Both the position numbers and the translations under genes were made by a program. DNA of 64,000 nt from NCBI GenBank assembly GCA_000004985.1, contig GG738904.1; one strand, 5' to 3'. Under the pieces are notes generated by a model. It ran no database searches. It was given only the letters and a program-made list of their open reading frames with translations, and was not told the origin of the DNA. Shown here piece after piece: positions 39,215 through 64,000 of the stretch (position 1 is its first letter; each line of letters starts with the position of its first letter). The stretch is from Naegleria gruberi. Lineage: Eukaryota.

Positions 39215-40210
39215 GTTTTCGGAATGTACAAAGAAAAACCGGATTAAACCTTAGATTGACTAGTTTGAGTATAGGTAGTAGTATTAGTATTAGTTGTTGT
39301 TGTGTCTTGTTCGGATTGATTTCTATTGAAAAAATCAAAGGAAGGATGATATAAACACATGACCAAAATTGAAAATATTAAAATTCCCAAACAATTCAAA
39401 AAATCATAAAACAATGATGAATAATTCCAGACAAAACTAACAGCACCCAATCCAACTGCAATAATTTGAAAAAATGTTGAAAATATCAAAACTGAAAGCA
39501 AAATGATAATTTTCAAAATGGGTTGTTTCCATGAATAGGATTGAGATTGATCTTTGAATTGTTTTCTTGTCTTGTTGAGGAGTATAATCACTCTTGAAAA
39601 CACAATCTATTCATTATTTCAAAATAATTTTAGTTTTCATAATTTGCATTTAGAATTATGAGAATGTTAAATGAAAACTTACTGAAATTGCAATTGTTTG
39701 AACAATTAATTGAATTGCAAAGAATGCGAAACAAGCAATCACGAATATGAACAATATATCATCAGCATATGGTATCCCAACAGTTTCTGTTGTCAATGTA
39801 CTATTCCTGTTTATCATAACATCTTGATAGAGTTGATCTGTTTCATTCACATTATTCACTTTCAAATAATTGTGAAATCGTTCAACAATGGAAATATTAC
39901 AAAAAGTATAAGCAGTTCTTGCACACAATGCCAATGTTTGAACAATCAACAATGTATTCACGAGAATGAGAACAATTCTCTGAGCCTTCCTCAATGTCTT
40001 CCAAGTTTGATTCCTCACAATGAAAATAATCATGACAAGAATGAGTGAAATGAACAACAAGATGAAGAGAAAGGAAATCGATTGATCTATAGCACTCAAC
40101 AGAGTATCATCAAAATCATCAATAGTAAACACTGGAGAGGAGACATTGTTGGTAGAAGATGACGTTTCGTTTACCTGGTAGTTTACTAGAAGAGCTAGTT
40201 CGGCAAGTTT
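39215..40210. repeat. inverted segmental duplication, arm A
   Basis: High nucleotide identity to 44125..45350 in the opposite orientation. Homology ends about 30 nt past the stop codon on one side and near the start of the coding region on the other. Confidence 0.7.
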
Positions 40211-40956: not shown

Positions 40957-43475
40957 ATGCAAAGACTAAACTTTATTAGAATCCTTTGCTGCTACTTGCT
41001 TACAACAATAATCTTCATGTCAACATGTGTTGTTGAATGTAGAAACATGCATGTCATTGACAAACAAAGTCAATTGCGAGATATATCACAACCTTTCACT
41101 GTGGTTTCTATTCGAAAGTATTACACAAGTTTCGTCAATCATTTGGCACCAATTATGACCTCTGGAGTGGAATTTCTTTCAGATAGTCGACCTCTCCAAG
41201 AATATTTCAATGTTTACTGCGTTTATACTTCAGTTTTCAGCAGTGGAAATTTGGCGCCAAATGACAATTCCATATTAAGTAATCTCAACTCTTCTATTTG
41301 TTCAAGTATAAATCATTTAGACGATTCCAACATGCCAATCGATGCTGCCCATAACAGTTATCTTGTTCTGAACCAAGAACCTTCCATCATCTTCTCCCCA
41401 AATAGTTTACTTCCACTTTGGTCAATTATCTTGAAAAATGCAATGGTTGACCAGACGATGAGGTATAAAGTTTGGAATTATTCGATTTCTGAAACGTTTA
41501 CAATGTATGCACTGTATGATAAAGCAACAAGTATGGAATATGTGTTGGATAGCGATCTAGTTTCGAATAGGGAAGGAATTGTAAAAGAATTGGAAGAGGA
41601 AATATGGAACGATTGTAAATTATTCGAAAGAGTGTACGAAATTCAAATGAGAGAAGGTTTAGGATTGGGATTTTCGTCAATCTCCATTTCTGAAAATAGG
41701 ATTTGCAATGAAACATTACAAAATTCAACATTTATGGAAGAATATCATCAAGCAATTTTGAGAATTGATTTATACTTGAATTTAATGTTGAATTATTCGA
41801 ATCTTGTGAATACTACTGGAAGTTTAACTCAAATGCTTCCAAGTTCCACTTTCTATTTTATGGATAATCTTATTGCTACCTTTAATCCAACCTTTCTAGT
41901 GGAAGCTATTCGAAATGTTTTACAAAATGGAGGATTTAACACATATTTGTCCTATTCGAAACCTTCCTCGAACTATGATATGGAATACTTCTCCATGCTT
42001 CAAAAATCAGATCTGAAACCAGTTTCTCAACTCATGATTCATCCAAATTGTTTCTGCTATTACAACTTGTATGCCTCTCAATATTATTTCAGAGATTCTT
42101 ACCTTCTCAAACTAATCTTCAATGATATAATCTATTTTGGAATATTTTTTATTGGAGTTTTCATCTTCCTCTTTAATTGTGTGAGTTACTGCTTGGATTG
42201 TAAACTTTTTGTAAAGAAGAGAATTCTCCTTCCCTTATTAGGACCTCCAACGTTGATTGTAATCTCAGCATGTTACACTGTATTTTTGAGATCGAAATTT
42301 TCAGTGGCCACTTATTGGATTCTTGTGATTATTGCTGTTTTTCCTGCTCCAATTCTAATTGGTACTTATTTAGTTTCCTTATTTAGATTTTCCTATTGAA
42401 AAATATGGATTTGTGGCAGAAAAAGATTTTCAAATCACCCAAAATTCAGAAACACTTGGCTTCCACATGTACTTCAATGGTATTTTCCATAATTACAACC
42501 TTAATTGTCCTTGTCATTTGTTTGGCACCGATTGTCACTACTTCTGTGGCTATTTTGTTTAGTTCCGCAAATATTCCACAAGAATTGTTTATTCTATTGA
42601 TGGGATTTGAAGTTCTCTTCATGCTATTGTTTGCATTGATATTTTTCATAGTTGACTTGATCAATACTGGAGCTGCAATGATTAAGAGGAAAGGTTTAGG
42701 ATATTATTTCTTCTATGATGATCCTTTCTATTACAGAATTGACTTGTTTATCATGATCTTAATGATGGGATCTGTCATTCCAATCATTGTTGGTTCAGTT
42801 GAGGATGGAACTCCCTATTTCATTGTTCGAAAGGTCTTTACAGTAGTTTTCTTTGTCATGTTCTATGCAATCATTGGTGGAACTGTGACAATTGCTCACT
42901 GGATCAACAAGTTCAGAAGACTGAAATCCAAATACAGAAATGCACAAGTTACCACATTGGAATCATTCTTGGAAGATCAGCAATTTAGAGAAATGTTTCG
43001 AACCTATTCCAAAAATGAATTTTCATTGGAAAATATTATCATGTATGAAGAATTGGAAAAGCTAAAAAAGAACAATAAGGTAACCCCTCAGGAATTGAAA
43101 TCTCTTCAAGAGAAATTCCTCCTTTCATCCTCTGTTCATGAAGTTAATTATCCATCGGCAGTTAAGAAGAACTTTCAAGAATTATTGGATTCGTATAAGG
43201 ATGAGGACGTTTCTTCCAATGACAGTGATTCAACCACACAAACAAAATCATCCAATTCCCTTAAACAATCAACAGGACTTCCAAAGAAGGGAACTGTTAT
43301 GTTGGAAAAGATGTTAGAATTGGTCATGCCAGAATTATTGAAAAACATGTTTGACACATTTTCTCGCTTAAAGACAACACCTGAATTTGGGCATTGGTTT
43401 GAGATGAAGCAAATACAGACAACAGAATTGGGAGAGGAACAACACCAAGAACAACCAAAAGATGAGAAAGTTTAA
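40957..43475 (+). CDS. large-ectodomain 7TM receptor-RGS fusion protein (apparent frameshift at about 42390-42400)
   Basis: ATG at 40957 gives the signal peptide MQRLNFIRILCCYLLTTIIFMSTCVVEC. The ectodomain is about 390 aa. There are 3 TM helices at the end of ORF 40909..42399 and 4 TM helices at the start of ORF 42396..43475, which makes 7TM. The C-terminal RGS domain reads LESFLEDQQFREMFRTYSKNEFSLENIIMYEELEKLKK...NYPSAVKKNFQELL. The two ORFs overlap by only 4 nt next to an AAAAA run. No intron of plausible size fits, so this is a 1-nt indel, either an assembly error or a pseudogene. Confidence 0.5.
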
Positions 43476-44109: not shown

Positions 44110-45334
44110 GTGAAGAAACTTGCCCACCTTTCAAATTTCAAAACTTTTACTGCCACTACTGACGACTCTTCAAATAACAATGTCTCCTCTCCAGTGTTTA
44201 CTATTGATGATTTTGATGATACTCTGTTGAGTGCCATAGATCAGTCGATTTCCTTTCTCTTCATCTTGTTGTTCATTTCACTCATTCTTGTCATGATTAT
44301 TTTCATTGTGAGGAATCAAACTTGGAAGACACTGAGGAAGGCTCAAAGAATTGTTCTCATTCTCGTGAATACATTGTTGATTGTTCAAACATTGGCATTG
44401 TGTGCAAGAACTGCTTATACTTTTTGTAATATTTCCATTGTTGAACGATTTCACAATTATTTGAAAGTGAATAATGTGAATGAAACAGATCAACTCTATC
44501 AAGATGTTATGATCAATAGGAATAGTACATTGACAACAGAAACTGTTGGGATACCATATGCTGATTTAGTGGGAATGTTTTTCTCGAATGGAATTGAAAC
44601 CTTTTTAATACTGTTAGCTCTCTTGGTGATTAATGAAATTGTGCACTACATTTCTCATCTATTCTTCAATCTGATCAAATATTCACAAGGAATATTGAAA
44701 TCAAAGAGAACCAAAATTATCAGAAAGATATTCGATATTTCCTTTTTCATTAGTTCTGGAGTTTTCTTTGTCTTGCTTATTGCAATTTTAGTAATGCTCA
44801 TAATAGTCAAACTGAAAGTAATTGAAGATATATTGTTCATATTCGTGATTGCTTGTTTCGCATTCTTTGCAATTCAATTAATTGTTCAAACAATTGCAAT
44901 TTCAGTAAGTTTTCATTTAACATTCTCATAATTCTAAATGCTAATACTCATTACTCATTTTGAAATTCAAATAGATTGTATTTTCAAGAGTGATTATACT
45001 CCTCAACAAGACAAGAAAACAATTCAAAGATCAATCTCAATCCTATTCATGGAAACAACCCATTCTGAAAATTATCATTTTGCTTTCAGTTTTGATATTT
45101 TCAACATTTTTTCAAATTATTGCAGTTGGATTGGGTGCTGTTAGTTTTGTTTGGAATTATTCATCATTATTTTATGATTTTTTGAATTGTTTGGGAATTT
45201 TAATATTTTCAATTTTGGTCATGTGTTTATATCATCCTTCCTTTGATTTTTTCAATAGAAATCAATCCGAACAAGACACAACAAATACTAATACCGATAC
45301 TAACAATACTCAAACTAGTCAATCTAAGGTTTAA
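44110..45334 (+). CDS. multi-pass membrane protein, duplicate copy B (7 predicted TM); two exons, start codon unresolved
   Basis: Exon 1 runs to 44904. The intron is 44905..44974 (70 nt, GTAAGT...AAATAG, phase 0). Exon 2 is 44975..45334. The reading frame stays open upstream to 43999 without any ATG, and the position homologous to copy A's ATG is CTG. So the start has either been lost or lies in an unseen upstream exon. Confidence 0.45.
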
Positions 45335-45350
45335 TCCGGTTTTTCTTTGT
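44125..45350. repeat. inverted segmental duplication, arm B
   Basis: Partner of 39215..40210. It carries an extra 243-nt coding segment that arm A lacks. Confidence 0.7.
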
Positions 45351-45577
45351 ACAATCTTCCTTATGGTAGAATATGTTCCAAAAATTACTATTAATACTAT
45401 TATTTAAATCATGATGAGATGATGTGGTGAAATTCTTGGAGTTAACAGATGTGAAACTACTCCAACAATCAACAGGGTCGGGTTGCCAATATTTTGGTGT
45501 AATTTTTTCATATGAACAATCCAAAATAGGAATTTATTATTATTTAAAATAATTTAAAAATTGCAATTTAAAAAAAA

Positions 45578-47614
45578 ATGCAACTAGAACTAACAGAAGA
45601 AGTTCGGACGCTCATTTCTGAAATCTTGGAAGATGCTTATTTGGAAGGTGATACATACCAATTGATTGGAGAAATCTATGAAACCTATTTACAATTTAGT
45701 GAAGAGATGAATAATAATGAAACGGAAACACTGGACAGATTTATAACCACAGAAAAAGGAACGGATGATCTGACCAGTTTATTCAAATTACTTTATACAT
45801 ATGATTCGGAATTGGATGAATCGTTCGGATTTCAACATGGTGAAATTCCTCTCATGTTGATGAAACCCTTCATGATGATGGAAAATACTTCTCCGAATAA
45901 TTGTAATTTAATATTTCGGCCATTCCCTAAATTTAAAAAAGAAATTCCATCATGGATATTTAAATATTCCTTTTATACATTTGAAACGGTGGAGGAATTA
46001 CCTTTGAATGATTTTCTGGAAACTTTCTTTGTGTTTTTAAGTCATTTTGAAAGACGATTTTGGGGAGATGAAACTTTGTGTCCTAAATGGGGAGAAGCTG
46101 AACAAATCCTGTTCGATAAATGCATGACTATCTTTGGTAGAATTCAATTGAACACTCGTCCAAAAAAGCATGTAGAGAAATTTGAATTGCTCAAATTAAT
46201 CTTTGAACACCTTGAAAATACAGAAACTCAAAAGAGTCATGTCATTACGTATTTTAGTGATTCTTTAACCAAGCTTTTTGCATTGGAATTTGAAAAATTA
46301 AAGTACATGGAAAGAAATGAAGAAAGAGCCAAAAGACTTGAGAAAACATTGAGTCTAATGGAGGGATTGAATTCAAGAGAGAGAACATTTCTTGGAGAAT
46401 TATTTAGTATCGTTGGAGATTCATTGGAAGATTTGGAAATTAGACATTCTGCTTTACGCTTAACTCAAAATTGTAGTTTTAGTGTTGATTTTCTGTCTAT
46501 GTGTGCCAAGTGTTGCGATTCTAAATTTCCAAAATCAATTATCCAAACAGCATTTCAAATATGTGTAATAATGAAGGGCTTCATTGACCCTGATAGAATG
46601 AGCATGCAAGATAGCAACGAGTTGAGTCGCTTATTGGTAAATGCTGCTATTAATTTTAATGTGGAAAATGTTGCAAACGCCCTCACTCTTTTTACCTTCA
46701 TTATATTACGTCAAGATTTTCTTTTTCCACAGGGTGAGGATGAATTAGTACACATAATTTATTTACTTAGAGCAGGTAAATACATTTCTGAAATTAGAAA
46801 TCCTCAATTTGGCTGTTTGGCTCATGTTATACGATTCATTTATAGTAACTGTACTAGTGGGACTATTTCTATAGTTTTACCCAGATATTTTGAAGAAATC
46901 AAGAAAAACACTAATGCACCAACAGCTGATTTAGTAGAACAATTAGCTGAAGCATACCTAACAATGAAAAAATTAATAAGCCTACCATTATGTAGCCCTA
47001 AGAACAGAGAAACTTTGAACACTCTTTCTAATGATATTATTTTGTACGTTTATGAGTATTTCAAAAATAGACCATATGTTTCTGACAATTTGACGCGAGT
47101 AATTATTTCAAACAGATTGTATCATGATCTTCCAAAACTAGAATCTTCCAAATCAAATCTGGAAGTTTTGTTTACAGCATGTGCAAATCCTACATCCTTT
47201 AGGTATTTGGATTTTATGAATTTATTAGCCGAAATGTTGATAGTTGGACTGCCAGTGCTTGTGGACCAATTAAAAAGACCAACAACAGTTATTTTGAGCG
47301 ATCCCGAATTTAGTTTGATTCAAGTTGGTCTCGTCAATCTTGTTGCTAGAGAATTTGCTCATACTTTATTCTACCGACACGTGGAACAATACGGCAGCGA
47401 TATTGAATTTTCTAATGACACATTATGTGGAGAGTACTCTCACGATCTAGCTCTATATGGATTTTTATTGTTTATGGATGATTTATTGGAAAAGGGGTGT
47501 AGTGTAATAACTCTTGTTACTATAGATATTGATGAAAATCTAAAATATAATTCCTTAATTAATTCAATTTACAAACGAGTCCTCCACAAGATTAGTGCCC
47601 ATAAATTGGGTTAG
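45578..47614 (+). CDS. hypothetical protein (678 aa)
   Basis: Long ORF with ATG at 45578 in an aaaaaaaaATG context. No recognisable domain. Confidence 0.55.
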   Translation: MQLELTEEVRTLISEILEDAYLEGDTYQLIGEIYETYLQFSEEMNNNETETLDRFITTEKGTDDLTSLFKLLYTYDSELDESFGFQHGEIPLMLMKPFMMMENTSPNNCNLIFRPFPKFKKEIPSWIFKYSFYTFETVEELPLNDFLETFFVFLSHFERRFWGDETLCPKWGEAEQILFDKCMTIFGRIQLNTRPKKHVEKFELLKLIFEHLENTETQKSHVITYFSDSLTKLFALEFEKLKYMERNEERAKRLEKTLSLMEGLNSRERTFLGELFSIVGDSLEDLEIRHSALRLTQNCSFSVDFLSMCAKCCDSKFPKSIIQTAFQICVIMKGFIDPDRMSMQDSNELSRLLVNAAINFNVENVANALTLFTFIILRQDFLFPQGEDELVHIIYLLRAGKYISEIRNPQFGCLAHVIRFIYSNCTSGTISIVLPRYFEEIKKNTNAPTADLVEQLAEAYLTMKKLISLPLCSPKNRETLNTLSNDIILYVYEYFKNRPYVSDNLTRVIISNRLYHDLPKLESSKSNLEVLFTACANPTSFRYLDFMNLLAEMLIVGLPVLVDQLKRPTTVILSDPEFSLIQVGLVNLVAREFAHTLFYRHVEQYGSDIEFSNDTLCGEYSHDLALYGFLLFMDDLLEKGCSVITLVTIDIDENLKYNSLINSIYKRVLHKISAHKLG

Positions 47615-53801: not shown

Positions 53802-56480
53802 ATGGCACCAAACAAAAACAGCAGCAACAATACACAAAATTCGAAGGCTTGGCATTCGGTGAGGAGAGCCTCCCAATCAACACAACAACCCAGTTTAGCC
53901 ATAGAGGATAGTGTGGATTTGGGAGCAGTTTGCGAAACTCCAGTTACAGCCAAAACACCCATTCGGGAAGCTTTCGAAAATATTGGAAATTATAGTAAAT
54001 CATCAACATCACAAAAGAAGGCTTCTTCATCGTCATCACAGAATGCTCGGAAGCAACAACAAGAAGAGGAATCACGAAAAGATGACGGTGATGGAGAGAT
54101 GGAATTTAATTTCTCTGATTTGGAAGAGGATGAAGATAAATCAGAGAAGAAACAAGAAGAACAATTCGAACGATCGCCAGTGTTCTACTCATCGGAGAGT
54201 GATGCACCTCCAACAAAAAACACCAAATCAAAGAAAACCTATCAACCAACACAGGAGCAAGCATCTGAAAAGGAAGAAGATGAAGAAAAACAAGCAAAAC
54301 AATCATCTAAATCAATAGTCAGTGGTAGTAGTAAACAACGTGCTTCTGACTATTCTCAATATTTCACACCAGATGAGGATGAAAATGAAAAGGAAAAGGA
54401 AGGCTATTCTTTGAGGAAAACTCCAACAAGAGTCTATCAGGAAAAGAAGAAGAGGAAAAAGATGATAAAAAAGAAGGAAATTTTGATCAGTTCCGATGAA
54501 GAGGAAGATGGTCAAACTTTGAGGAATGATAAAATGTATGATAGTGACGAGATACCTGATGAAGATATTGAAGCAATGGAAGAACAAGAAAGAGCTAGGA
54601 AGAGGAAACAACCACAAACTGAGGAAGAAAGAAGAGAACGAGAAAAACAAGAGGAGGAGAGAAAGAAGGCCGAACTGAAATTGAGGAAAAAGAAATTGAC
54701 AGAACTTTCAAATTCAATGAGAAAGAAAAATCAACACAAATCCATTTATATTGAGGAGGAGGATGAGATTTCAAAGGATTTATTTTCGAGTGGAAAGAGA
54801 AAGTCAACATTTGATGATGATGAGCTATTCTCTCAGCCATCATCTAAGGAAGAAAAAGAAGTCTTCTCCTCTCCAAAGAAGAGACTAAAGAAGAAGTCTG
54901 GTAGTCCAGTCGGTTCAACAATCACATTCGACAAGGAGGATAGTGATGATGCCAATAGTGAAGAGTTGGAAAATTTAGCAAAGGAAATTAGAGAAAATAA
55001 TCTACTTTTGTCTGCTAAAAAGAAGAAGAAACCACTCAGTCTAAAAACTCAAAAAAGAAAGTCACACAGTAGCTCAGAAGAGGAAGCTCCACGAAGAAAA
55101 TCAACAAGTACTAGAAAAGGTAGAGATCAAGACAGTGAAGATGAAGATGATGGTATGGTTACCATGAGTCAATTTATTGTAAGTGATGAGGAAGAGGATG
55201 AAGCACCTGAATACAACGTCTATAGAATGGTCGACATGATGGAAAATGATATGGATTCACAAGAGTTCCACTCCATTCTCACAAGTAATACCAGACTCTC
55301 CTCAGATTTCAAATCTTCCTTTGCAATCTATATTCATTTTATCACTTCACACTTGCTGGATGAGGATTTTATTCAATCTCTCAAATTTAAAGATAGAACT
55401 CACTTTGCTAATGCCTCAAAAATGGTGGAAGGTAAATTGGAAACGGTCAAGGACAGCTTAATTTATAGCTCAGCTTGGAAATCGAGACACAAGAACCTTC
55501 TCCAATTCTATCCAATCATTAAGGCTAGAGAAATTTCTCTCAAGGATACTGAAATTGACAATAGCGACAAGTGTTGTCAAGCTTGTGGCAGAAAGAACCA
55601 TCAAGCTGAATATACACTCATATTCAAACCACCAAGAGCTACCACTAAATATGAATTTTCATCCGGAGCTCACATCAACTGGATAGATTCACCAGAGGAA
55701 GATTCGGAGGAGGATAATGATTTTATTCAACTCTCACAAAGAAGAGCAGTAACAGGTAAAAAATGTAAATATACTAAGGAGAAGTCATTCGTTGGATCGA
55801 CCTGTTACAAACGATCCTTATTGTACCATAGTTTCCAACATTACAAATTCCATTTAATTCAACATATTATCAACAAGATTGACAAGATTGCCACCAATTT
55901 TGAAGGAGAAGAAGAAATTACAAGCGACTATATTTTGGACAAGATTGTTTCTAAAAAGAGTTGGATTGAATCACTCTACAAAAAGTATCTCAAATTAATT
56001 GAGGAAGCAGAGGCTAGTTATACCAAATCGAAGGATGCTGGAGTTATTGATGTGGTTGATGAATTATTCGATGTCTATGATTCAGAGGAGGAAGTAATCA
56101 ATTCAGATCCAGAAGAAAAGGACAATGACTTTATTGTTACCAACACACGTGGAGGACTTCGATTGAAACGAACCAAACCAAAATCAGATGATGAGCAAGA
56201 TCAAGACGATGCTGAGCTCATTGACACCACAGAAGAACAAATACCTCCTCAAAAGGAAAAGCCAAAACAACCAAGAGAATTGAAATTATCATTTGCAGTT
56301 TCTCCCATTCCTGTTGAAGACGATGAAGAAGATAAAGAGCTTGACTTTTTGGATAAGGAAGAAGACATTCCAAAACCGCTCTCACCAAAAGAAAATTCAA
56401 AAAAGACGGAAGAGAAAATCCCAGATTTGAGTGGATATCTTGACTCGTCAGATGACGACATTCTCAATTATAATTTTTAA
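53802..56480 (+). CDS. highly charged (E/K/S/D-rich) protein with Cys-containing C-terminal domain
   Basis: 892 aa with ATG at 53802. The N-terminal 450 aa are low-complexity, acidic and basic. The C-terminal folded region contains CCQACGRKNH and FQHYKFHLIQH. No confident family assignment. Confidence 0.55.
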   Translation: MAPNKNSSNNTQNSKAWHSVRRASQSTQQPSLAIEDSVDLGAVCETPVTAKTPIREAFENIGNYSKSSTSQKKASSSSSQNARKQQQEEESRKDDGDGEMEFNFSDLEEDEDKSEKKQEEQFERSPVFYSSESDAPPTKNTKSKKTYQPTQEQASEKEEDEEKQAKQSSKSIVSGSSKQRASDYSQYFTPDEDENEKEKEGYSLRKTPTRVYQEKKKRKKMIKKKEILISSDEEEDGQTLRNDKMYDSDEIPDEDIEAMEEQERARKRKQPQTEEERREREKQEEERKKAELKLRKKKLTELSNSMRKKNQHKSIYIEEEDEISKDLFSSGKRKSTFDDDELFSQPSSKEEKEVFSSPKKRLKKKSGSPVGSTITFDKEDSDDANSEELENLAKEIRENNLLLSAKKKKKPLSLKTQKRKSHSSSEEEAPRRKSTSTRKGRDQDSEDEDDGMVTMSQFIVSDEEEDEAPEYNVYRMVDMMENDMDSQEFHSILTSNTRLSSDFKSSFAIYIHFITSHLLDEDFIQSLKFKDRTHFANASKMVEGKLETVKDSLIYSSAWKSRHKNLLQFYPIIKAREISLKDTEIDNSDKCCQACGRKNHQAEYTLIFKPPRATTKYEFSSGAHINWIDSPEEDSEEDNDFIQLSQRRAVTGKKCKYTKEKSFVGSTCYKRSLLYHSFQHYKFHLIQHIINKIDKIATNFEGEEEITSDYILDKIVSKKSWIESLYKKYLKLIEEAEASYTKSKDAGVIDVVDELFDVYDSEEEVINSDPEEKDNDFIVTNTRGGLRLKRTKPKSDDEQDQDDAELIDTTEEQIPPQKEKPKQPRELKLSFAVSPIPVEDDEEDKELDFLDKEEDIPKPLSPKENSKKTEEKIPDLSGYLDSSDDDILNYNF

Positions 56481-56530
56481 AAATACAATTTAATATTAAC
56501 ATGTTTACAATGTATTGATTTGATCATCTC

Positions 56531-57298
56531 TTAATCCTTCTTCACACCAGGACTAATCCATTGCAAAACACTTGGTTGATTGTAAACCCACTTTCTGAAA
56601 TCTTCTTTTGAAATCTTTCCCTTATGTTCTCCTTCAGAATCCCTCTCAGCTTGTTCAAAACATTTATCCACAATTGAATCAATTTCACTTTGTTCAATGA
56701 CTTTGTGTGATGTAGTTTCGTATTCTGGCAAATTTAAACTCTTTCTCACATCCGATAAGAGAGCAAGACTCTTATTGAAAAGACATGATAAAAGATGAGA
56801 CATTTCATGTCTTTCAATAAATCCATTTCCATCTTCATCATAAACAGAAAAGATGACTATTTCCAATATATTATTTCTAATAACATTTCTGTGTGAAACT
56901 TACAATTAAGAATATTTTGAAAATAATTCTGCCAATTCTAACTTTCCGACTATTTCGAATAAATTAACAAGACGAAACTAAGTTTCCACTTACAATGTGT
57001 CTTATCTTGAAGTTCTACGATGGATTTTTCAACATTTCCTCGTTCCTTCTTTTCCAACAACATTCTAGGACTAATTTTGATGGCTGCCAAACGATCAATC
57101 ACATCAAGAGAATCGTATCTTTTAATTTGCAATCGATTAGCACTATTCGAAATTAGACGAAACCATAAAATTAATAAAATTAACATACAGTGACTTGTTG
57201 ACGGCTTTCAAAGGTGTTTTATGAAGAGTTTGCACTGGCTCTTCGTCATCTCCTGTTGTTTCAATTACTGGATTAGCTTCAATATCTTTCAATGACAT
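56531..57298 (-). CDS. EF-hand calcium-binding protein; three exons
   Basis: Exon 1 is 57298..57189 (MSLKDIEANPVIETTGDDEEPVQTLHKTPLKAVNKS). Intron 1 is 57143..57188 (46 nt, GTATGT...ATAG). Exon 2 is 57142..56994. Intron 2 is 56857..56993 (137 nt, GTAAGT...ATAG). Exon 3 is 56856..56531 and carries the canonical EF loop DEDGNGFIERHE. All splice phases are consistent. Confidence 0.55.
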
Positions 57299-57592
57299 TT
57301 TTTTAAAGGTTGGACCTTGATTAATGACAGGTAAAAAATATTGAATTTCACATCAAATCTTTGACATTTTAAAAAGGAAGCTTTTCATCAAGTATGATCC
57401 TCAAAAAACCCTTCATATTAATACACCATTAACATTGTAAACTATTTAACTCTTTACAAAATTAAATATCAATATAATAACTATACACTTTACAATATTA
57501 AATACTTTGCAATGCAAATCCCATTCTGCACTCATTCCTGCATTTTCTTGAACGTGAACTTTGAAATTGCACTTTTGAAACTTTAAAAAAAA

Positions 57593-59159
57593 ATGCTCGA
57601 AAATCAAAACCCACACGAAAATACAAATAATAATTCATCATCTACATTAAAGATGATAGGATCAGGATCAGTTCAATCAATTGAGAAGAGTGTATTCATT
57701 GATATGGATACATTGTGTTATCCAAAATTGCAACACCTCTCACAAGTGGAGGAAAATATCAAGGGAGGATTATTCTATTGAAGATGGTAAGGAACAGCCA
57801 TTTGTCTTGTTGGAAAAATTGGATGGAAGTCTCTGTTCACCAATTATTGAGAGAGTTGTTTCAGAAAGTGATGCTTCTAGTTTGAATAGCTCATTGAAAA
57901 AGAATAATTTTGCTTCAGTTTCTGCAGAGAAAATTGAAAAGAGAGCATATGATACTTTCAGATTGAGAATGAGAACTAAATTGTCGCATACCAATGCTAT
58001 TGTAATGGGTATGGAAGAGTTGATTTATGATTTGGGAGACGAAGGAACAAGGAGAAATGCCAAAGGAGAGGATATCAAGTTAATATTGAATGATCATTTG
58101 AAGAATGTTCCAACTTTCGAATACAAGACAAGTGAAATGACAAAAGAAGAGGAGGAATATTTGGTTTTCAAAATTGATGAACAAGCTTTGGAAATTGATG
58201 CCAATTTCACTCAACTCTCTGAAAAAGTGCAAAACTTTATCAGATTTTGCATTCATTGGATAAATAAGGGTTTCACACCACTCTTTGAATTCTTCAGTAA
58301 GGAACACAAGATTGTCATTGATTATGGAGACAAACCATTCCTATCATTGTTGGCTCTTAGACATACAGTGGATGGTTACTTCCTCCCATATTCACAAGTC
58401 AAGAAGAGTGCTCAACAATATGGCATTGACTGTGTCAAGGAATGCTCAAATGAACAAGTCATAGAAGCAGCCAAGACAGGAGATATGGATGAAATTTTGA
58501 AAGCCATTCGAAATGAAAGAGGCGTCGAAGGATATGTCCTTGTGTTAAATAATGGTTGGATGTTCAAAGTCAAATCCATGTGGTACAATAACATTCACAA
58601 AACCAATGGATTTATCAGTAAGGGAGAATTGAAAGAATCTAGAATATGGCAATATTGTTTCGATTCAAAAATTGATGATGTTATAGGATTTGTTAGAAGA
58701 GACGAGGATAGAATTCGTCTACAAGAATTCAATGACACTGTCATCAATGCTCTGAATAATTATGTCTCAAAAGTTCAACAATTCAAAGAGATAATTCAAC
58801 TTGAATTACAGAAAGAATTCCCAAATACACCAATCGAAGAAATTCCAATGAAAGATTACTCAAGAGTTGCCAAACAAGTAATTAAGGATGAACCAAATTA
58901 TGTTTTCACAGCACTCGTTGTAAATAAGAAGGATCAAACCAGTTTATCATCACTCATTAAGGAATATTGTAGTAGAAATGTTGTCAATCAATTGGGATCT
59001 ATCAAAAACATGCTAGGTTGTCAAGACATTGAATTTATTTCCAGAAGTGAAATTAATAGAAGAGCAAAATTGCAGAGACAGAAAGAAGGAGCTACACAAG
59101 AAGAAGAAGTCAACCAAGAAGAGGACGAAGATTCTGAAGATGCTGCTGAAGATTTATAA
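57593..59159 (+). CDS. ATP-dependent RNA ligase-like (Rnl family) nucleotidyltransferase with apparent 1-nt frameshift
   Basis: Motif I is EKLDGSL (KxDG). Motif IV-like is EGYVLVL and motif V is WMFKVKS, at canonical spacing. The N-terminal 60 aa (ATG at 57593) are in a different frame from the main ORF 57681..59159. The frames can be joined by removing one G from the GGG run at about 57766-57768. No intron fits. Confidence 0.55.
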
Positions 59160-59610
59160 ATCTTAAGATATTCAGAGAGATAATAAGAGACCTAATGCCT
59201 TTCAATACCAATTTTTCTCTAACTCAAAACCAATAATCTAGATCACCATTCTTGGTTTCCCGCCGATTTCTTTCATTTAAAAAATAAAAAAATTCACCAA
59301 TAATTGCTAATTGAGATGAGGATTGATGGTTGTTGATAACTTCAAGTATCAATCTCGGAATAGTCGAATACTATGGCAATAATGAATCTCTCCATCTCTA
59401 AACATTATAATTACATGAACAAATTAAAAGTTTAACGACATCAAGGGAAACAATATTGCCAAATACACAGAGATGATGTTCTGTGATTTGTTGTTTCCAG
59501 AAAATTGTTTAATTGGGAATTAATTTCTATACTGACTAGTGTTGATGATTATTACAGTTTATTGTTCTTCGATACTTTACATCAATCGGAGATTAATTAA
59601 TAGAAAAAAG

Positions 59611-62600
59611 ATGCAAGATAGTTTCGCCTCTTTTAAACACCAATCAGGCCAAAACATGATGAACAGTAGTACAATGGATAGTCAATCTATTGTTGGTCAA
59701 TCCACTCAATTCTCTTTCGAATTGGAATCAGGAACAGACCAACAACCTGATTTGATATCTTCCTTCAATGAAAAGATAACTGGACATCTTACAGACCTTC
59801 AATCAAATTCGAGTTATAATGGTTGGAAATCTATGATATTGTATGGAGCCATCAATTTATATTATTGGTACCTGTTGATAGTGTTACCTTTGGTTCCAAC
59901 ATTTTCTCAGGAAATTTTGAATCCGAATACAACAACCTCTCCATTTGGATATTATGGATCTTGGATATTTAGAGGTATGGCCTTCCCTCTGACTTTGGGA
60001 TTAGACTTACTACCATACGATGGATTTGTGGGTGTTGGAATAGTTGTGCTTTTGGTTACCTTTTTCCTCACATGTTTACATTTACAAAATCTTACACCTA
60101 AACGAAATGCTAAACTTCAAGAGATACTATCAAAGATATTGGGAATTGCTACACACACCTTCCTGTTTATTGGCCCAGCCATGATGTATGCTCTGACAAA
60201 CTTTACCGATTGTCGATCCACAACTGAGGATGGAGTTTTGTCTTTCATGTTGAGTAGAGATAGTTCAGCTGAATGTGTGGCTGGTACAAATATCATCTTT
60301 ATGGTCTTGGCATGTATTGCTCTAATATTTCTAGAGATGGTTATGTTTTTCTCTGGTTTCGTATATCCAATCTTTTCGAGCACTGGTACTATTGCCTTCC
60401 TTCCACAAGATAACACTCCTGTAGCTTTGGTGTTTGCCTCTGTGGGACTAAGAATAATGACTTCTTTCTCAATTCCATCCAATTATTTGTATGGTAGAGC
60501 TGTCTGTCATATTGTCATTGGTATTATTCCTTTAATTGTTATGTTTTATCAAGTTCCTTTTGTACGAATGATTGAGAATGCAATTTATACGGGAATTTTA
60601 GGTGCCTCTATTGGATCTGCTGTAGGAGTATTGGTTAGCACGTTTGTGAGCTCGGGAACTGATATTGGCATGTCTTTGGGTATGCTAGGTATGACAGTTG
60701 GTTGTTCTCTCCTTTTTGGATTGCTTTGCTCTTTAATCATGTTCTTTTACTTGGTTGTGACTGTCAAGAGAGTGAGAAATTTCCTTAAATCCATTGATGA
60801 AGATATTCAAATTATCACTCCTCTCATTGAGAACACTCTAGGGTTAAGAAATATGGAAATATTCTTCAGATTATCCCTCAGAAAACGATTTAGTCCTGAT
60901 TTTAATGAAGATGATGAGAACCTGGAAGATTTTCCTCGCTGCCTTATCTACGCAAAGAGAGAAGCAATGAATAAGAGCTTTATAAATACAGGAATGCTAT
61001 TTCTCTGCGCGACTGCAATCAGCAAGGTGAGGGACATTCAATCTCTTTCTCTCACACTCTTCAAAAAGGCATTGAAATCTTCAAAGAATCCTTTCACGAA
61101 CTACTTAATTACCACTCACATGAAAATTATAGAATTAGGTGTCACTGATGCTATTTCCCTCAAATCATCTCTTTCAGTCTTGGAGAAAAAGAGAGTCGAG
61201 CTCAAGGCCATTCACAAAATGTTTTTCAAAGAATTTACTAATGAAATACCAAACAAGGACAAGATTGAAAACTTTGTAACAATGGCCAATGATATTGTCC
61301 AATATTGTGATCAAACCTTTTCTGTTTTACTTTCAAGAGGTAGGGATAAAACAATACTCAGATATTATGCCAACTATATTGAAACTGTCAAGATGGATAA
61401 AGATGCTGCCTCTGCTCTTATTGACGAAGCTAATTTATTGGAAGAAGAAGATGTAAGAGGAGTTATAAGAAAGGGAAGACACAAGACGAATAGAGTTCTT
61501 CCTACCGATAAAAAAATGACTTTTATTGAGGAAATGTCCCAAACCGGAGAAGAAGATTTTCTTGGACTTGATACTAGACAAGCAACAGAAAAAAAGCAGG
61601 CCATTTATAGAAATGCTCTTGCTGTACCATACAAATCTAATTGGAGATACTTAATGTTGGTTATATTGTCTGTATTGGCTGTGGGTACGCTTTCGGCAAC
61701 TTTAGGATTGGGTCTGTTCAATAGTATTAGAGCAACAGAGACAAATCTAGTTATTCAAAGTTGTTTGCCAATGCTTGTGCCTGAGGGATTATTGAGATAT
61801 GTCAGAATGAGACAAATCATGCTCGAACTATTTACAAATCAAAGAATTTCATTACCAGCTGTTGGCAGTGTTAATAGAGCCAATGTTGACAACTATCTTT
61901 CCTATTTTGAAAATAAGATTGCCACAAAGAGAGATAACCTTTTATCATTGGCTGAAAACTCTAGGTCTCACAGGTTCACAGATAGCATGTACAAGGATTA
62001 TACACAAAGAAAGGAAGTTTATATTCCTGTTCCTTCTAAAAACGGATCTCTAACCTACTTGGAAAACTATATGAAAAATGTGTCAATGAGTGAAATTACG
62101 CTCGAGTTTGCAAAGCATGCCAATTATTTTAGTGAATTTTCGGTTGAAGCTTTCAATACCACAAGTTCTAGCTTTACTTTTATGTTTGTCTTCTTTAACA
62201 GAGTTCAAGCAGCACAAGGTTTCAGATCATTTTGTCAATCATTCCAACAAAGTGAAACAACTTACATTGATGAGAATGATAAGGCCTTATGGACCTACAT
62301 TCTAGTTTCAGGTTCTATTTCTTGTATTTATATTTTATTGTATAGCATTATATCAAGATTGGAAATGGAAAGATTGTCAAGAATCATTAAGCTATATAAG
62401 AAGATTCCAAAAGATACAATTGGTGTAATCTATCACAATTTAGATAAGACCTGTCCAGATCATAACTCTAAATCTGGCAGAACCTTCTTGTCTAAACCAA
62501 AGAATTTAGCAATCATGTTACCAGTAGTTTTGTTGATTTTATATAGTGCTACTGCAGCTCTAATTTACTTTGAAAGTTCAATGAATATTGCAAATTCAAA

Positions 62601-64000
62601 AGATGCCATTACCTCTGTTGATAACTTGGCTGTACTTACAAGATTTACAGTCAAGTTGAGCACTAAGTTGGGAGAAATGTTTGCTTTCTTTAGTGTACCT
62701 CATGGAAGACCTGTTAACGCTGCTGTTACTTTTGATCAGGTTGAGCTGTACAGAAATGAAGTTAGAGATTTTGCCACCATTGTTCAAGATTCATACGATT
62801 CATTCATTGAAACCTATACTAGAGGCAGTAGTGGTGGAGTGGTTGGTAAATATCCAGCTATTGATGAACTAGTTGGTGGACCTGCAAATTGTACTGGTGA
62901 TAGAAACTGTTCATTACAAGCAATGTTATCGAGCTACGTCTCACAAGTTACTACCATGGCTGAGGAATATTTCAATCCACTCTTTTCTGCCCAAGTAGAA
63001 CCAACATTTTACAAATATTTGTCACTCTATAATATGAATGAGGAAATTTATGATAGAGTAATGAAGATTCTAGATTTACTCGAAAAGCACACCTCAGAGT
63101 CCTCTAAAGTTATCTCAATTGTAACATTTGCTGTATTTTTCCTCTTTCTATTTTTGGTTTCCTTCTTGCTGTACAGATCTGCTCAAGTGTACGATGATGA
63201 AATTACCACAATTCGTTCCCTGTTGAGCTACTTACCACTTGATTATTTGGAATCTAATGAACAAATTAAGAATTTTATATTCTTCAATGGTTTCAAATCA
63301 GAAAAGGTTGCTAAAAAAGAAGAAGATGAAAATTCAATGAACAACTTACTTGATTCTATGGTAGATGGTGCATTCTTATCCAATGAGAGAGGTGAAGTTG
63401 TGCTTTTCAATAAGGCTGCTCAAAAGGTATGTCAAATATTTTNNNNNNNNNNNNNNNNNNNNNNNNNNNNNNNNNNNNNNNNNNNNNNNNNNATTACCAG
63501 ATACAAGGGTGCAAAGTACATGGTCTGTTTCATTAAAGATATCACTCCTGAAAAGAAACAAAAAGCTCTATTAGCAGAAGAAAAGAAGAACTCTGAAGCA
63601 TTATTGAGAAATATTCTACCTGAGGCAGTTGCCAGTAAATTGAAATCAGGAGATACCTTCATTGCTGAAAGATTTACTGATGTGACTTGTTTCTTCTCTG
63701 ATATGTAAGTAGTTTCATAGTATTTCCATTTTTACTAAGCAATTAAAATAGGGTCGGATTTACAAGTTTATCTTCCAATATGAATCCTTCTGATTTAGTG
63801 TTAATGTTGAATGAAATTGTAAATGGTTTTGATGACTTGACTGACAAGTACACTTTAGAAAAGATTAAAACTATTGGAGATGCTTATTTCTGTGTGGGTG
63901 GACTGTAAGTATTTAACTGTAAATGATAACCATCTAACTATTTCAATAACCAGTCATAACAACTCTCAATCAGATCACCCTGAACGTGTTCTCAGATTTT
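59611..64000 (+). CDS. multi-pass membrane PAS-domain class III nucleotidyl (adenylyl/guanylyl) cyclase, 3'-partial
   Basis: There is an N-terminal cluster of about 10 TM helices, then a large middle region, then further TM helices, then a PAS-like segment (MVDGAFLSNERGEVVLFNKAAQKVCQIF...ITRYKGAKYMVCFIKDIT). The cyclase domain is split by short introns: 63705..63751 (47 nt, GTAAGT) and 63905..63953 (49 nt, GTAAGT). Splicing gives FFSDMVGFTSLSSNMNPSDLVLMLNEIVNGFDDLTDKYTLEKIKTIGDAYFCVGGL. The probable ATG is at 59611 (aaaaaagATG), with an alternative at 59545. A 50-nt N gap lies in the coding region. Confidence 0.7.
63443..63492. other. assembly gap (50 N)
   Basis: Run of N characters inside the PAS-coding part of the cyclase gene. 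The flanking reading frame is preserved. Confidence 0.95.

What the first reader, a model, noticed from the sequence alone, without database searches (positions are those of the whole stretch)
57593..59159. Rnl-type ATP-dependent RNA ligase gene interrupted by a single-base frameshift
The KxDG (EKLDGSL), EGYVLV and FKVKS motifs at canonical spacing identify a covalent nucleotidyltransferase ligase of the T4 Rnl-like class. This is not the Trl1 type expected for fungal tRNA splicing. The first 60 codons are out of frame with the rest. One extra G in the GGG run at about 57766-57768 would explain this. The 170-aa C-terminal extension has no obvious family.
Basis: partly seen in the sequence, partly recalled or inferred. 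Interest (0 to 1): 0.55.

Follow-up and report, generated by a model that had tools for sequence, protein, structure and literature searches.

The report
Broken Naegleria RNA ligase gene copy
This is a known T4-Rnl1-type RNA ligase gene of the amoeba Naegleria gruberi; it is broken by the loss of about 300 bases that encode part of its ATP-binding site, not by one extra base, so it is most likely a young pseudogene or a sequence defect and of little wider interest.

Summary
The window is Naegleria gruberi, not a fungus. The gene is EFC38820.1, one of seven Rnl1-family ligases already listed for this species (PMC4408790). The ligase motifs and the frame break are real: ORF-A 57593-57781, ORF-B 57681-59159, GGG run at 57763-57765. 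The break is not a single-base slip. All nine homologs (N. fowleri, N. lovaniensis, Willaertia, environmental) have 107-114 residues between 'EENI' and 'PFVLLEKLDG'; the window has 12. About 290-300 nt are missing and lie nowhere else in the window. [quoted passage not shown] Removing one G gives an open frame but not a working ligase. The database model bridges the break with a 67-nt 'intron' that deletes conserved coding sequence. The rest of the gene is undecayed (71 of 74 invariant residues kept, no rate acceleration, 492 open codons). So the loss is very recent, confined to one allele, or a sequencing artefact. The adjacent EF-hand gene has a similar frame-breaking loss of about 315 nt, 860 nt away. 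The C-terminal part is the Rnl1-type helical domain, not a family-less extension. Interest is low.

The parts
57593..57766 (+). 5' remnant of the ligase coding sequence (frame 2). A variable N-terminus is followed by the conserved first helix, DMDTLCYPKLQHLSQVEENIKG.
   Evidence: tblastn with N. fowleri P0002 residues 12-35 hits 57695-57766 at 79% identity, E=1.3e-6. The segment aligns with all homologs.
57760..57767 (+). Deletion junction and frame break (TCAAGGGA, containing the GGG run 57763-57765). The left flank reads in frame 2 and the right flank in frame 0. The exact breakpoint is ambiguous by a few bases.
   Evidence: P0002 residues 36-141 have no counterpart; the two tblastn segments are separated by only 19 nt (57767-57785) against 318 nt in N. 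fowleri L001 6106-6423. Homologs have 107-114 residues here and the window has 12. The frame arithmetic requires a loss of 3n+2 nt.
57767..57781 (+). Out-of-frame tail of ORF-A (GLFY, then TGA at 57779-57781). It has no coding meaning.
   Evidence: Translation.
57717..57783 (+). The 67-nt 'intron' (GTTATC...TTGAAG) used by the database model EFC38820.1 to bridge the frames. Most likely a modelling patch and not a real intron.
   Evidence: Splicing 57593-57716 to 57784-59159 reproduces P0001 exactly. The interval encodes CYPKLQHLSQVEENIKG in frame with exon 1, 14 of 17 identical to N. fowleri. Three real introns next door are 44-47 nt, GTAWGT...AATAG. No homolog has an intron here.
57765..59159 (+). 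3' remnant of the ligase coding sequence (frame 0): variable linker, nucleotidyltransferase core, C-terminal helical domain, acidic tail, and stop TAA at 59157-59159.
   Evidence: PF09511 64.6 bits for this part alone. 59% identity to N. fowleri over residues 142-575. Model pLDDT 79.9, best PDB fold matches T4 Rnl1 at E=1.7e-8.
57813..57833 (+). Motif I, EKLDGSL. The Lys codon 57816-57818 is the counterpart of the T4 Rnl1 Lys99 adenylylation site.
   Evidence: hhalign of the family against T4 Rnl1: LLEKLDGSL aligns to ILTKEDGSL. Invariant in all homologs. Coordinates.
57834..57959 (+). Family-specific insertion 1 between motif I and the RLRMRTKLS strand. Low-confidence, probably disordered.
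   Evidence: Gap against T4 Rnl1 in hhalign. pLDDT below 50 for model residues 35-59.
58026..58238 (+). Family-specific insertion 2 (about 70 residues, partly helical), upstream of motif III.
   Evidence: Gap against T4 Rnl1 in hhalign. Present in both paralog clades with variable length.
58278..58298 (+). Motif III, PLFEFFS (counterpart of T4 Rnl1 Glu159).
58527..58577 (+). Motifs IV (EGYVLV, 58527-58544) and V (FKVKS, 58563-58577), the counterparts of T4 Rnl1 Glu227/Gly228 and Lys240/Lys242.
58581..59030 (+). C-terminal all-helical domain. Its first ~60 residues are homologous to the T4 Rnl1 C-terminal domain; the rest is conserved only within Heterolobosea.
   Evidence: hhalign extends to T4 residue 300. 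TIGR02308 alignment reaches profile position 323 of 373. Helices H272-H441 at pLDDT 82-96. Conserved in the alignment.
57969..57971 (+). First true ATG in the ORF-B frame (codon 97). It lies 51 codons downstream of the motif I lysine, so ORF-B translated on its own cannot include the active-site Lys.

Best explanation
The locus is the positional ortholog in N. gruberi NEG-M of a heterolobosean T4-Rnl1-family ATP-dependent RNA ligase (N. fowleri FDP41_001479). In this sequence the gene has lost about 290-300 nt (3n+2) between 'EENIKG' and the linker before motif I. That removes almost the whole Rnl1-type N-terminal subdomain, including the counterparts of T4 Rnl1 Arg54 and Lys75 (ATP gamma-phosphate contacts, essential for activity) and Phe76/77 (adenine contact), and it shifts the frame. 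As it stands the gene cannot make an active ligase. Translation from the ATG at 57593 stops after 62 codons. The long downstream frame has no AUG before the catalytic lysine. Any bridged product (one-base repair, or the 67-nt 'intron' of model EFC38820.1) lacks the ATP-binding elements needed for lysine adenylylation.

Both flanks are still conserved and undecayed, so the loss is very recent. I take it to be a real genomic deletion in the sequenced strain, either a young pseudogene or a null allele of a heterozygous diploid kept clonally in the laboratory. It may have arisen together with the similar loss in the adjacent EF-hand gene.

Shown: family assignment, absence of the segment, which residues are lost, and the intact state of the remainder. 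Inferred: loss of activity, recency, and a genomic as opposed to an artefactual origin.
For: Identity and family: P0001 = EFC38820.1, N. gruberi; PF09511, TIGR02308 and PDB T4 Rnl1 matches; hhalign of the family against T4 Rnl1 gives 99.5% probability, E=1.5e-22; fold matches.

Orthology: the DUF4211 and EF-hand genes flank the ligase in both species.

Missing block: alignment of nine homologs from two paralog clades. tblastn places P0002 12-35 and 142-575 only 19 nt apart, and the 109-residue segment is not found elsewhere in the window (best E=0.64). The spacer is 107-114 residues in homologs and 12 here.

Content of the lost block: 27 invariant residues; R94=R54, K112=K75, F113/114=F76/77. 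Arg54 and Lys75 contact the ATP gamma-phosphate and are essential in vitro (PMC6379707). In the N. fowleri model, residues 36-141 are folded at pLDDT 78-91, and the intact ortholog fits T4 Rnl1 better than the remnant does (TMt 0.51 vs 0.36).

No usable start: the first ATG of ORF-B is codon 97 and KLDG is at codon 46.

Recency: 71 of 74 retained invariant positions are identical. The relative-rate test against N. fowleri with Willaertia as outgroup gives 47 vs 38 unique changes, chi-square 0.95. There are 492 open codons. A simple neutral-decay simulation keeps the frame open with P>0.05 only up to about 0.013 substitutions per site.

Against an assembly collapse: no repeats at the junction, no N-run nearer than 63443, and a Sanger assembly (PMC9928731).

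Allele scenario: Naegleria is described as a mainly mitotic heterozygous diploid (PMC9928731).
Against: No reads and no second assembly of N. gruberi could be examined, so a cloning or assembly artefact is not excluded. Two frame-breaking losses of about 300 nt only 860 nt apart in adjacent genes would be an odd coincidence for independent natural events. They could instead point to a local defect in the sequence, for example a consensus built from one rearranged clone in a low-coverage, AT-rich stretch.

The absence of decay is equally compatible with the remnant still being under selection. Loss of activity is inferred from T4 Rnl1 and Trl1 mutational data and was not measured for this family.
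Confidence: 0.6

Rival explanations
1. Sequence artefact. The real NEG-M genome has an intact gene of about 600 codons, and the ~300-nt gap, together with the ~315-nt gap in the neighbouring EF-hand gene, arose during cloning in E. coli or assembly of the Sanger shotgun data. An example would be a consensus resting on a rearranged clone in a thinly covered AT-rich stretch.
For: Both flanks of both gaps are perfectly preserved coding sequence. Two similar-sized gaps lie 860 nt apart in adjacent genes. The record is a draft scaffold with N-gaps. It is the only N. gruberi assembly available, so nothing independent confirms it (PMC9928731; look-ups found no second source).
Against: There are no repeats at the junction that could collapse an assembly. 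Missing sequence in such assemblies is normally shown as Ns, as at 63443-63492. An average Sanger coverage of about 8x (my recollection of the genome paper, not checked here) would require several independent clones with the same deletion.
Confidence: 0.25
2. Functional shortened variant. The mRNA is really spliced at 57717-57783, as in model EFC38820.1, or the ribosome shifts +1 near AAGGGAGG. The result is a protein of about 500-520 residues without the N-terminal subdomain, which has a non-canonical role such as RNA binding, regulation, or sealing of pre-adenylylated ends only.
For: The remnant keeps all core motifs and 71 of 74 invariant residues, and evolves at the same rate as its N. fowleri ortholog. 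GT...AG boundaries exist that restore the frame.
Against: The putative intron contains 17 codons conserved in frame with exon 1 (14 of 17 identical to N. fowleri), which would not survive in an old intron. Its boundaries (GTTATC...GAAG, 67 nt) differ from three genuine neighbouring introns (GTAWGT...AATAG, 44-47 nt). No homolog has an intron there. None of the nine homologs lacks the subdomain. The lost residues are essential in T4 Rnl1 (PMC6379707). No frameshift signal is evident.
Confidence: 0.08
3. One reading: an otherwise intact ligase gene interrupted only by a one-base insertion in a G run, either a sequencing error or a simple frameshift mutation.
For: Deleting one base at 57763-57766 yields a continuous 521-codon ORF.
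Against: The repaired ORF still lacks 95-102 residues that all nine homologs and T4 Rnl1 have, including 27 invariant positions and the Arg54, Lys75 and Phe76/77 counterparts. Sanger data are not prone to homopolymer errors in a 3-base run. The frame change is fully explained by a loss of 3n+2 nt.
Confidence: 0.04

Closest known systems
Bacteriophage T4 RNA ligase 1 (RnlA, gp63; PDB 2C5U, 5TT6, 9DO4), the Rnl1 family prototype
   Same: Same nucleotidyltransferase core with motifs I, III, IV and V at equivalent positions (K99, E159, E227/G228, K240/K242). Same start of the helical C-terminal domain. It is the best sequence and fold match in the PDB. The intact orthologs also share the N-terminal subdomain with R54, K75 and F76/77.
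   Different: The window's copy lacks the N-terminal subdomain and is out of frame. The heterolobosean family has two insertions (about 40 and 70 residues) between motifs I and III, and a C-terminal domain about 70 residues longer with an acidic tail. Identity is only about 26%. It falls far below the TIGR02308 equivalog cut-off (76.7 vs 242 bits). It is eukaryotic and nuclear, and the N. fowleri gene has a spliceosomal intron.
N. fowleri FDP41_001479 / FDP41_009109 (P0002, P0012) and Willaertia magna ABK040_009640 (P0003), uncharacterised 'T4 RNA ligase 1-like' proteins
   Same: Orthologs at 59% and 49% identity over the retained part, with the same insertions and C-terminal domain. The N. 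fowleri gene is in conserved microsynteny.
   Different: They are intact at 591-602 residues and contain the ~100-residue block that is missing here. N. fowleri has one 51-nt intron at ISK|GELKE that is absent in N. gruberi.
Fungal and plant tRNA ligase Trl1/Rlg1, ligase domain (PDB 6N0T, 6N0V, 8RBJ, 9QW7)
   Same: Also Rnl1-clade adenylyltransferases with the same N-terminal subdomain contacts (CthTrl1 Arg99, Lys120, Phe121; PMC6379707). They are the second-best fold matches for the intact ortholog (E=2e-6 to 7e-5).
   Different: No fused polynucleotide kinase or cyclic phosphodiesterase domains (only PF09511 and PF09414 were found). No sequence-level PDB hit to Trl1. The family is closer to T4 Rnl1.
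NgrRnl (Rnl5 family), the characterised N. gruberi RNA ligase (PDB 5COT and others)
   Same: Same organism and same superfamily of lysine-adenylylating ligases.
   Different: A different family. NgrRnl has an N-terminal appendage and no C-terminal domain (PMC4408790). It gives only weak fold similarity (E=0.03 or worse).

Membership tests
Rnl1 family (T4 RnlA-type RNA ligase; Pfam PF09511) | Significant match to the family profile above the curated threshold | tested here: met
   PF09511 scores 66.6 bits for the repaired ORF and 64.6 bits for the remnant alone, against a cut-off of 28.3. hhalign of the family against T4 Rnl1: 99.5% probability, E=1.5e-22.
Rnl1 family (T4 RnlA-type RNA ligase; Pfam PF09511) | Nucleotidyltransferase motifs I (KxDG, with the nucleophilic Lys), III, IV and V | tested here: met
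   EKLDGSL, PLFEFFS, EGYVLV and FKVKS align to T4 K99, E159, E227/G228 and K240/K242. All are invariant in the family.
Rnl1 family (T4 RnlA-type RNA ligase; Pfam PF09511) | Rnl1-type N-terminal subdomain supplying the Arg54 and Lys75 (ATP gamma-phosphate) and Phe76/77 (adenine) contacts | tested here: not met
   Absent from the window: 12 residues where homologs have 107-114, and not encoded elsewhere in the 64 kb. Present in all nine homologs as RREIRGL and MPKFFN. The role of these residues is taken from PMC6379707.
Rnl1 family (T4 RnlA-type RNA ligase; Pfam PF09511) | Rnl1-type all-helical C-terminal domain | tested here: inconclusive
   The first ~60 residues align to the T4 Rnl1 C-domain (to T4 residue 300; TIGR02308 to position 323 of 373). 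The model is all-helical. The remainder has no detectable match outside Heterolobosea, and the global TM-score to T4 Rnl1 is low (0.30-0.36).
Rnl1 family (T4 RnlA-type RNA ligase; Pfam PF09511) | An uninterrupted coding sequence able to produce the enzyme | tested here: not met
   The frame breaks at 57760-57767. ORF-A stops at 57781. There is no AUG in ORF-B upstream of the motif I lysine.
Rnl1 family (T4 RnlA-type RNA ligase; Pfam PF09511) | ATP-dependent lysine adenylylation and sealing of 3'-OH/5'-PO4 RNA ends | not testable with these tools
   This is a biochemical property. No member of the heterolobosean subfamily has been assayed, as far as the papers searched show.
T4 RnlA equivalog (NCBIfam TIGR02308) | Score above the equivalog cut-off | tested here: not met
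   76.7 bits against a cut-off of 242.25. It is a distant subfamily, not an equivalog of the phage enzyme.
Trl1-type tRNA ligase (fungi, plants, kinetoplastids) | Ligase domain fused to polynucleotide kinase and cyclic phosphodiesterase domains | tested here: not met
   No kinase or CPD family was detected. The only hits are PF09511 and a weak PF09414. The protein ends after the helical domain. No healing-enzyme gene lies among the neighbours.
Rnl5 family (NgrRnl, DraRnl) | N-terminal appendage plus nucleotidyltransferase domain with no C-terminal domain | tested here: not met
   A C-terminal helical domain of about 190 residues is present. Fold similarity to NgrRnl is weak (E=0.03 or worse). 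The family definition is taken from PMC4408790.

The most novel reading that the evidence does not exclude
The shortened gene is not dead. N. gruberi expresses, through the unusual 67-nt intron or a +1 shift, an Rnl1-like protein that has naturally lost its ATP-gamma-phosphate-binding subdomain and has been re-purposed, for example as an RNA-binding or regulatory partner of the six other Rnl1 paralogs, or as an enzyme that can only seal pre-adenylylated ends. Alternatively, the paired ~300-nt losses in two divergently transcribed neighbours record one complex rearrangement event of a kind not yet described in Naegleria.
Probability: 0.06. Interest if true: 0.45.

Novelty: already known. Interest (0 to 1): 0.17.

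Why it matters
It matters mainly for annotation. EFC38820.1 / XP_002671564.1 (NAEGRDRAFT_81474) is counted in the literature among seven N. gruberi Rnl1-family ligases. As deposited, though, it is a patched model of a gene that lacks an essential part of the active site. Anyone planning to express or compare the Naegleria RNA-repair enzymes should use the intact N. fowleri or Willaertia orthologs, and should count six candidate Rnl1 enzymes in NEG-M, not seven, until the locus is resequenced.

It also shows that repairing a frameshift by one base can hide a much larger lesion. The intact heterolobosean subfamily (two insertions in the nucleotidyltransferase domain, a long C-terminal helical domain, two paralog clades) is uncharacterised and of moderate interest to RNA-repair specialists, but it is not a new kind of enzyme.

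Tried and rejected
(1) Missing block elsewhere in the window: tblastn with the 109-residue N. fowleri segment gave only chance-level hits (best E=0.64).

(2) Orphan fragment carrying the block in the N. gruberi proteome: the search with the segment alone failed for technical reasons (3 candidates, and the source protein itself was not recovered). A profile of the N-terminal regions returned only short metagenomic fragments at 42% identity or less, with no N. gruberi entry and again none of the query proteins, so it is inconclusive.

(3) A closer relative or an independent assembly:
- The metagenome scan with ORF-B found no relatives.
- An exact 25-mer from the left flank found nothing.
- Exact look-ups of P0001, the neighbouring DUF4211 ORF and ORF-B found nothing on record.
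- Four ATG-start variants of ORF-B, and ORF-A, are not in the protein collection.

(4) A repeat-mediated assembly collapse: there are no direct or inverted repeats at the junction, only repeats in the upstream intergenic region.

(5) A real intron at the break: rejected because the interval is conserved coding sequence and its boundaries differ from genuine neighbouring introns. That comparison rests on only three introns.

(6) An RNA-repair gene cluster: the neighbours are Sel1, NHL, DUF4211, EF-hand and a large membrane protein, with no kinase, phosphatase or CPD partner.

(7) An outgroup for the EF-hand loss: the Willaertia locus is not syntenic.

(8) dN/dS was not attempted. The nearest relative is only 59% identical in protein, so synonymous sites are saturated. 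A relative-rate test and a count of invariant sites were used instead.
Full report
**1. What is in the sequence**

The stretch 57593-59159 holds two overlapping open frames on the + strand. ORF-A runs from ATG 57593 to TGA 57779-57781 (62 codons, frame 2). ORF-B is open from 57681 to TAA 59157-59159 (492 codons, frame 0). ORF-B is not a chance frame. At 34% G+C the expected stop frequency is 0.083 per codon, so P(open) is about 3e-19, and the other five frames of the same stretch carry 18-49 stops.

- EKLDGSL at 57813-57833
- PLFEFFS at 58278-58298
- EGYVLV at 58527-58544
- FKVKS at 58563-58577

Removing one base there does fuse the frames into 521 codons.

**2. Organism and identity**

The repaired protein finds a 96%-identical 499-residue 'predicted protein [Naegleria gruberi]' (P0001). 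This is EFC38820.1 / XP_002671564.1 / NAEGRDRAFT_81474 on a 297-kb scaffold. Other ORFs of the window are exact matches to neighbouring N. gruberi proteins EFC38809-38819. The window is therefore the N. gruberi NEG-M reference, not a fungus.

EFC38820.1 is one of the seven 'Rnl1 family members' that Unciuleac and Shuman listed for this organism (PMC4408790). The family assignment is therefore already published.

**3. Family**

- Pfam PF09511 RNA_lig_T4_1: E=3.7e-18, 66.6 bits against a cut-off of 28.3.
- NCBIfam TIGR02308 'T4 RnlA family RNA ligase': E=1.8e-21, but 76.7 bits against an equivalog cut-off of 242.
- The only significant PDB sequence matches are T4 Rnl1 entries 2C5U, 5TT6 and 9DO4 (E about 3e-9).
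- A profile of the heterolobosean homologs aligns to T4 Rnl1 with 99.5% probability, E=1.5e-22, over T4 residues 52-300. My copy of the T4 sequence was first checked as identical to 2C5U.
- An AlphaFold model of the window's remnant (pLDDT 79.9) has T4 Rnl1 as its three best PDB fold matches (E=1.7e-8 to 1.7e-7).
- The model of the intact N. fowleri ortholog (pLDDT 80.6) matches T4 Rnl1 at E=3.8e-12, TMt 0.51. Fungal Trl1 ligase domains come next (E=2e-6 and weaker), and Rnl2, Rnl3 and Rnl5 enzymes follow.

No kinase or phosphodiesterase domain is present. It is thus a stand-alone Rnl1-type enzyme, closer to the phage prototype than to Trl1.

**4. The frame break is a deletion junction**

The orthologs in N. 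fowleri (P0002 and P0012, 602 residues), Willaertia magna (P0003, 591 residues) and an environmental Naegleria (P0004), and five members of a second paralog clade (P0005-P0009, including N. lovaniensis and Willaertia), all carry 107-114 residues between the conserved 'EENI' and 'PF(V/I)LLEKLDG'. The window has 12.

tblastn with the N. fowleri protein places residues 12-35 at 57695-57766 (frame 2, 79% identity) and residues 142-575 at 57786-59078 (frame 0, 61% identity). Residues 36-141 are unmatched. The two matches are 19 nt apart here and 318 nt apart in N. fowleri, a difference of 299 nt. The missing segment is not encoded anywhere else in the 64 kb (best E=0.64).

A loss of 3n+2 nt explains the frame change, so no extra base needs to be invoked. 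The junction lies within TCAAGGGA (57760-57767). Because 'ATCAAGGG' reads as conserved left-flank codons in frame 2, and 'AGGGAGGATTAT' reads plausibly as right-flank codons (R-E-D-Y against K-R-V-E-Y in relatives) in frame 0, a few bases of microhomology at the breakpoint are possible. This last point is inference only.

**5. What was lost**

The block contains 27 positions that are invariant in the eight intact heterolobosean homologs. Among them are RRE(I/V)RGL and MPKFFN. In the profile alignment these are T4 Rnl1 E52-C-R54-G55 and M73-E-K75-F76-F77-N78.

According to Banerjee et al. (PMC6379707), Arg54 and Lys75 of T4 Rnl1 contact the ATP gamma-phosphate and are essential for ligase activity in vitro. 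Phe76 contacts the adenine. [quoted passage not shown]

In the N. fowleri model, residues 36-141 form four strands and three helices at pLDDT 78-91. The one-base 'repair' therefore yields an ORF without the elements needed for step 1, lysine adenylylation. In addition, the first true ATG of ORF-B is codon 97, downstream of the motif I lysine at codon 46. ORF-B on its own cannot give a ligase either.

**6. The database model**

Splicing 57593-57716 to 57784-59159 reproduces P0001 exactly. The model therefore removes a 67-nt 'intron' (57717-57783, GTTATC...TTGAAG). This interval encodes CYPKLQHLSQVEENIKG in frame with exon 1, 14 of 17 identical to N. fowleri HYPKLTHLSQIEENIKG.

Three genuine introns in the adjacent EF-hand gene are 44-47 nt and read GTAWGT...AATAG. 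The single intron of the N. fowleri ligase is elsewhere (51 nt, GTAAGT...AAG, at ISK|GELKE), and the Willaertia gene is intronless. I conclude that the 'intron' is a gene-modelling patch. The sample of real introns is small, so this is likely and not proven.

**7. State of the remainder**

Outside the lost block the gene shows no decay. 71 of 74 invariant positions are identical, and the three exceptions are conservative changes in the C-terminal region. In a relative-rate test with Willaertia as outgroup, N. gruberi has 47 unique changes against 38 for N. fowleri (chi-square 0.95). Four other comparisons are also non-significant.

In a simple simulation (composition-matched substitutions, indels at one tenth of their rate and always disabling), ORF-B stays open with P>0.05 only up to about 0.013 substitutions per site. 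The 5' remnant, now in another frame, is also still conserved. The loss of the block is therefore very recent, affects one allele only, or is not real.

**8. Real or artefact?**

I could not reach reads or a second assembly. Searches for a closer relative or another source of this locus all came back empty or inconclusive.

Points for a real deletion:
- No repeat at the junction that could collapse an assembly.
- Gaps in this scaffold are marked by Ns (63443-63492).
- Sanger data (PMC9928731).
- A mainly mitotic heterozygous diploid life style, in which null alleles can persist (same paper).
- Functional redundancy, with six other Rnl1 genes (PMC4408790).

One point pulls the other way. The divergently transcribed EF-hand gene next door (ATG 57298, minus strand) also lacks a block that N. 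fowleri has. L001 916-1235 (the rest of exon 3, an intron and exon 4; 320 nt, including an EF-hand loop DSDKSETIDFREF) is replaced by 5 nt at 56904-56908. This leaves a conserved exon remnant, F-GKLELAELFSKYS, that runs into an in-frame TAA and the wrong splice phase. No gene model is annotated between EFC38819.1 and EFC38820.1.

Two frame-breaking losses of about 300 nt, 860 nt apart, both flanked by undecayed coding sequence, suggest a single cause. That could be one complex mutational event or a degenerate haplotype, or a local defect of the sequence. I rate a real deletion at about 0.6 and an artefact at about 0.25.

**9. How the intact enzyme most likely works (inference from the family)**

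It would be an ATP-dependent RNA ligase that forms a lysyl-AMP intermediate on the motif I lysine, transfers AMP to a 5'-phosphate RNA end, and seals it to a 3'-OH. Like T4 Rnl1 it probably acts on breaks in RNA stem-loops such as tRNA anticodon loops, and the helical C-terminal domain would contribute substrate choice. The general properties of Rnl1 enzymes are as summarised in PMC4408790.

Two insertions between motifs I and III, and a C-terminal domain about 70 residues longer than in T4 Rnl1, are specific to the heterolobosean subfamily. No end-healing partner gene is nearby. None of this has been tested for any member.

**10. Verdict**

The item is an already catalogued Rnl1-family gene whose N. 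gruberi reference copy is defective. The defect is the loss of about 300 nt that removes an essential subdomain, not a one-base frameshift. Novelty: already known. The new information is at the level of annotation. Interest is low (0.17).

Noticed in passing
window 56531-57298 (minus strand); junction at 56904-56908: The EF-hand gene transcribed divergently from the ligase also lacks a block present in N. fowleri. L001 916-1235 (the rest of exon 3, an intron and exon 4; 320 nt) is replaced by 5 nt. This leaves the conserved exon remnant F-GKLELAELFSKYS followed by an in-frame TAA and the wrong splice phase. Skipping that exon would give an in-frame 196-residue product with only two EF-hands. 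No gene model is annotated here (EFC38819 and EFC38820 are the flanking genes). It lies only 860 nt from the ligase junction.
   Followed up: partly
window 53802-57298 vs L001 296-5809: Microsynteny with N. fowleri is conserved (DUF4211 gene, EF-hand gene, ligase), but the two-gene DUF4211 + EF-hand block is inverted relative to the ligase. One inversion breakpoint lies in the 295-nt intergenic region just upstream of the ligase start. Beyond these three genes synteny is lost.
   Followed up: partly
window 39222-40159 and 44167-45356: Inverted duplication of about 1 kb (pieces of 399, 333 and 123 nt at 98% complementarity, plus 79 nt at 87%). It encloses about 4 kb with two ORFs, one of them an RGS-domain protein (42396-43475). 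No transposase or other Pfam family was found in the arms, so it looks like a local inverted segmental duplication and not a mobile element.
   Followed up: partly
window 63443-63492: A 50-N assembly gap lies inside the large downstream ORF 59539-63708. That ORF encodes a protein rich in transmembrane segments, with a TmcB-type TPR match and a C-terminal end that looks cyclase-like by eye (ILPEAVASKLKSG...FFSDM). The gap shows that the record is a draft scaffold.
   Followed up: no
L002 4227-9803 (N. fowleri VFQX01000066.1) vs L001: The N. fowleri assembly holds two copies of the ligase locus, clustered at 90% identity or more (FDP41_001479 and FDP41_009109), probably haplotigs. One of them has a retroelement (RVT_1 and RNase_H ORFs plus a 480-residue ORF) inserted between the DUF4211 gene and the ligase.
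   Followed up: no
L001 7270-7320: The N. fowleri ligase gene has one 51-nt intron (GTAAGT...CTAAG) that is in frame and free of stops. A Logan-derived protein of 619 residues (P0014) reads straight through it. The intron is absent from the N. gruberi and Willaertia genes.
   Followed up: yes
window 45578-47611 and 22167-23291: ENA metagenome assemblies contain proteins in the same 90%-identity clusters as two N. gruberi proteins of this window (P0045, 679 aa, on a 2.8-kb contig; P0048, 381 aa, on a 4.7-kb contig). Close relatives of N. gruberi therefore exist in public metagenomes and could give an independent look at the ligase locus if deeper data exist.
   Followed up: no
window 57428-57519: The AT-rich intergenic region shared by the ligase and the EF-hand gene contains a 20-nt direct repeat (ACWCTTTACAAWATTAAATA, two copies 36 nt apart) and overlapping imperfect inverted repeats. 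These may be promoter elements of the divergent gene pair.
   Followed up: no
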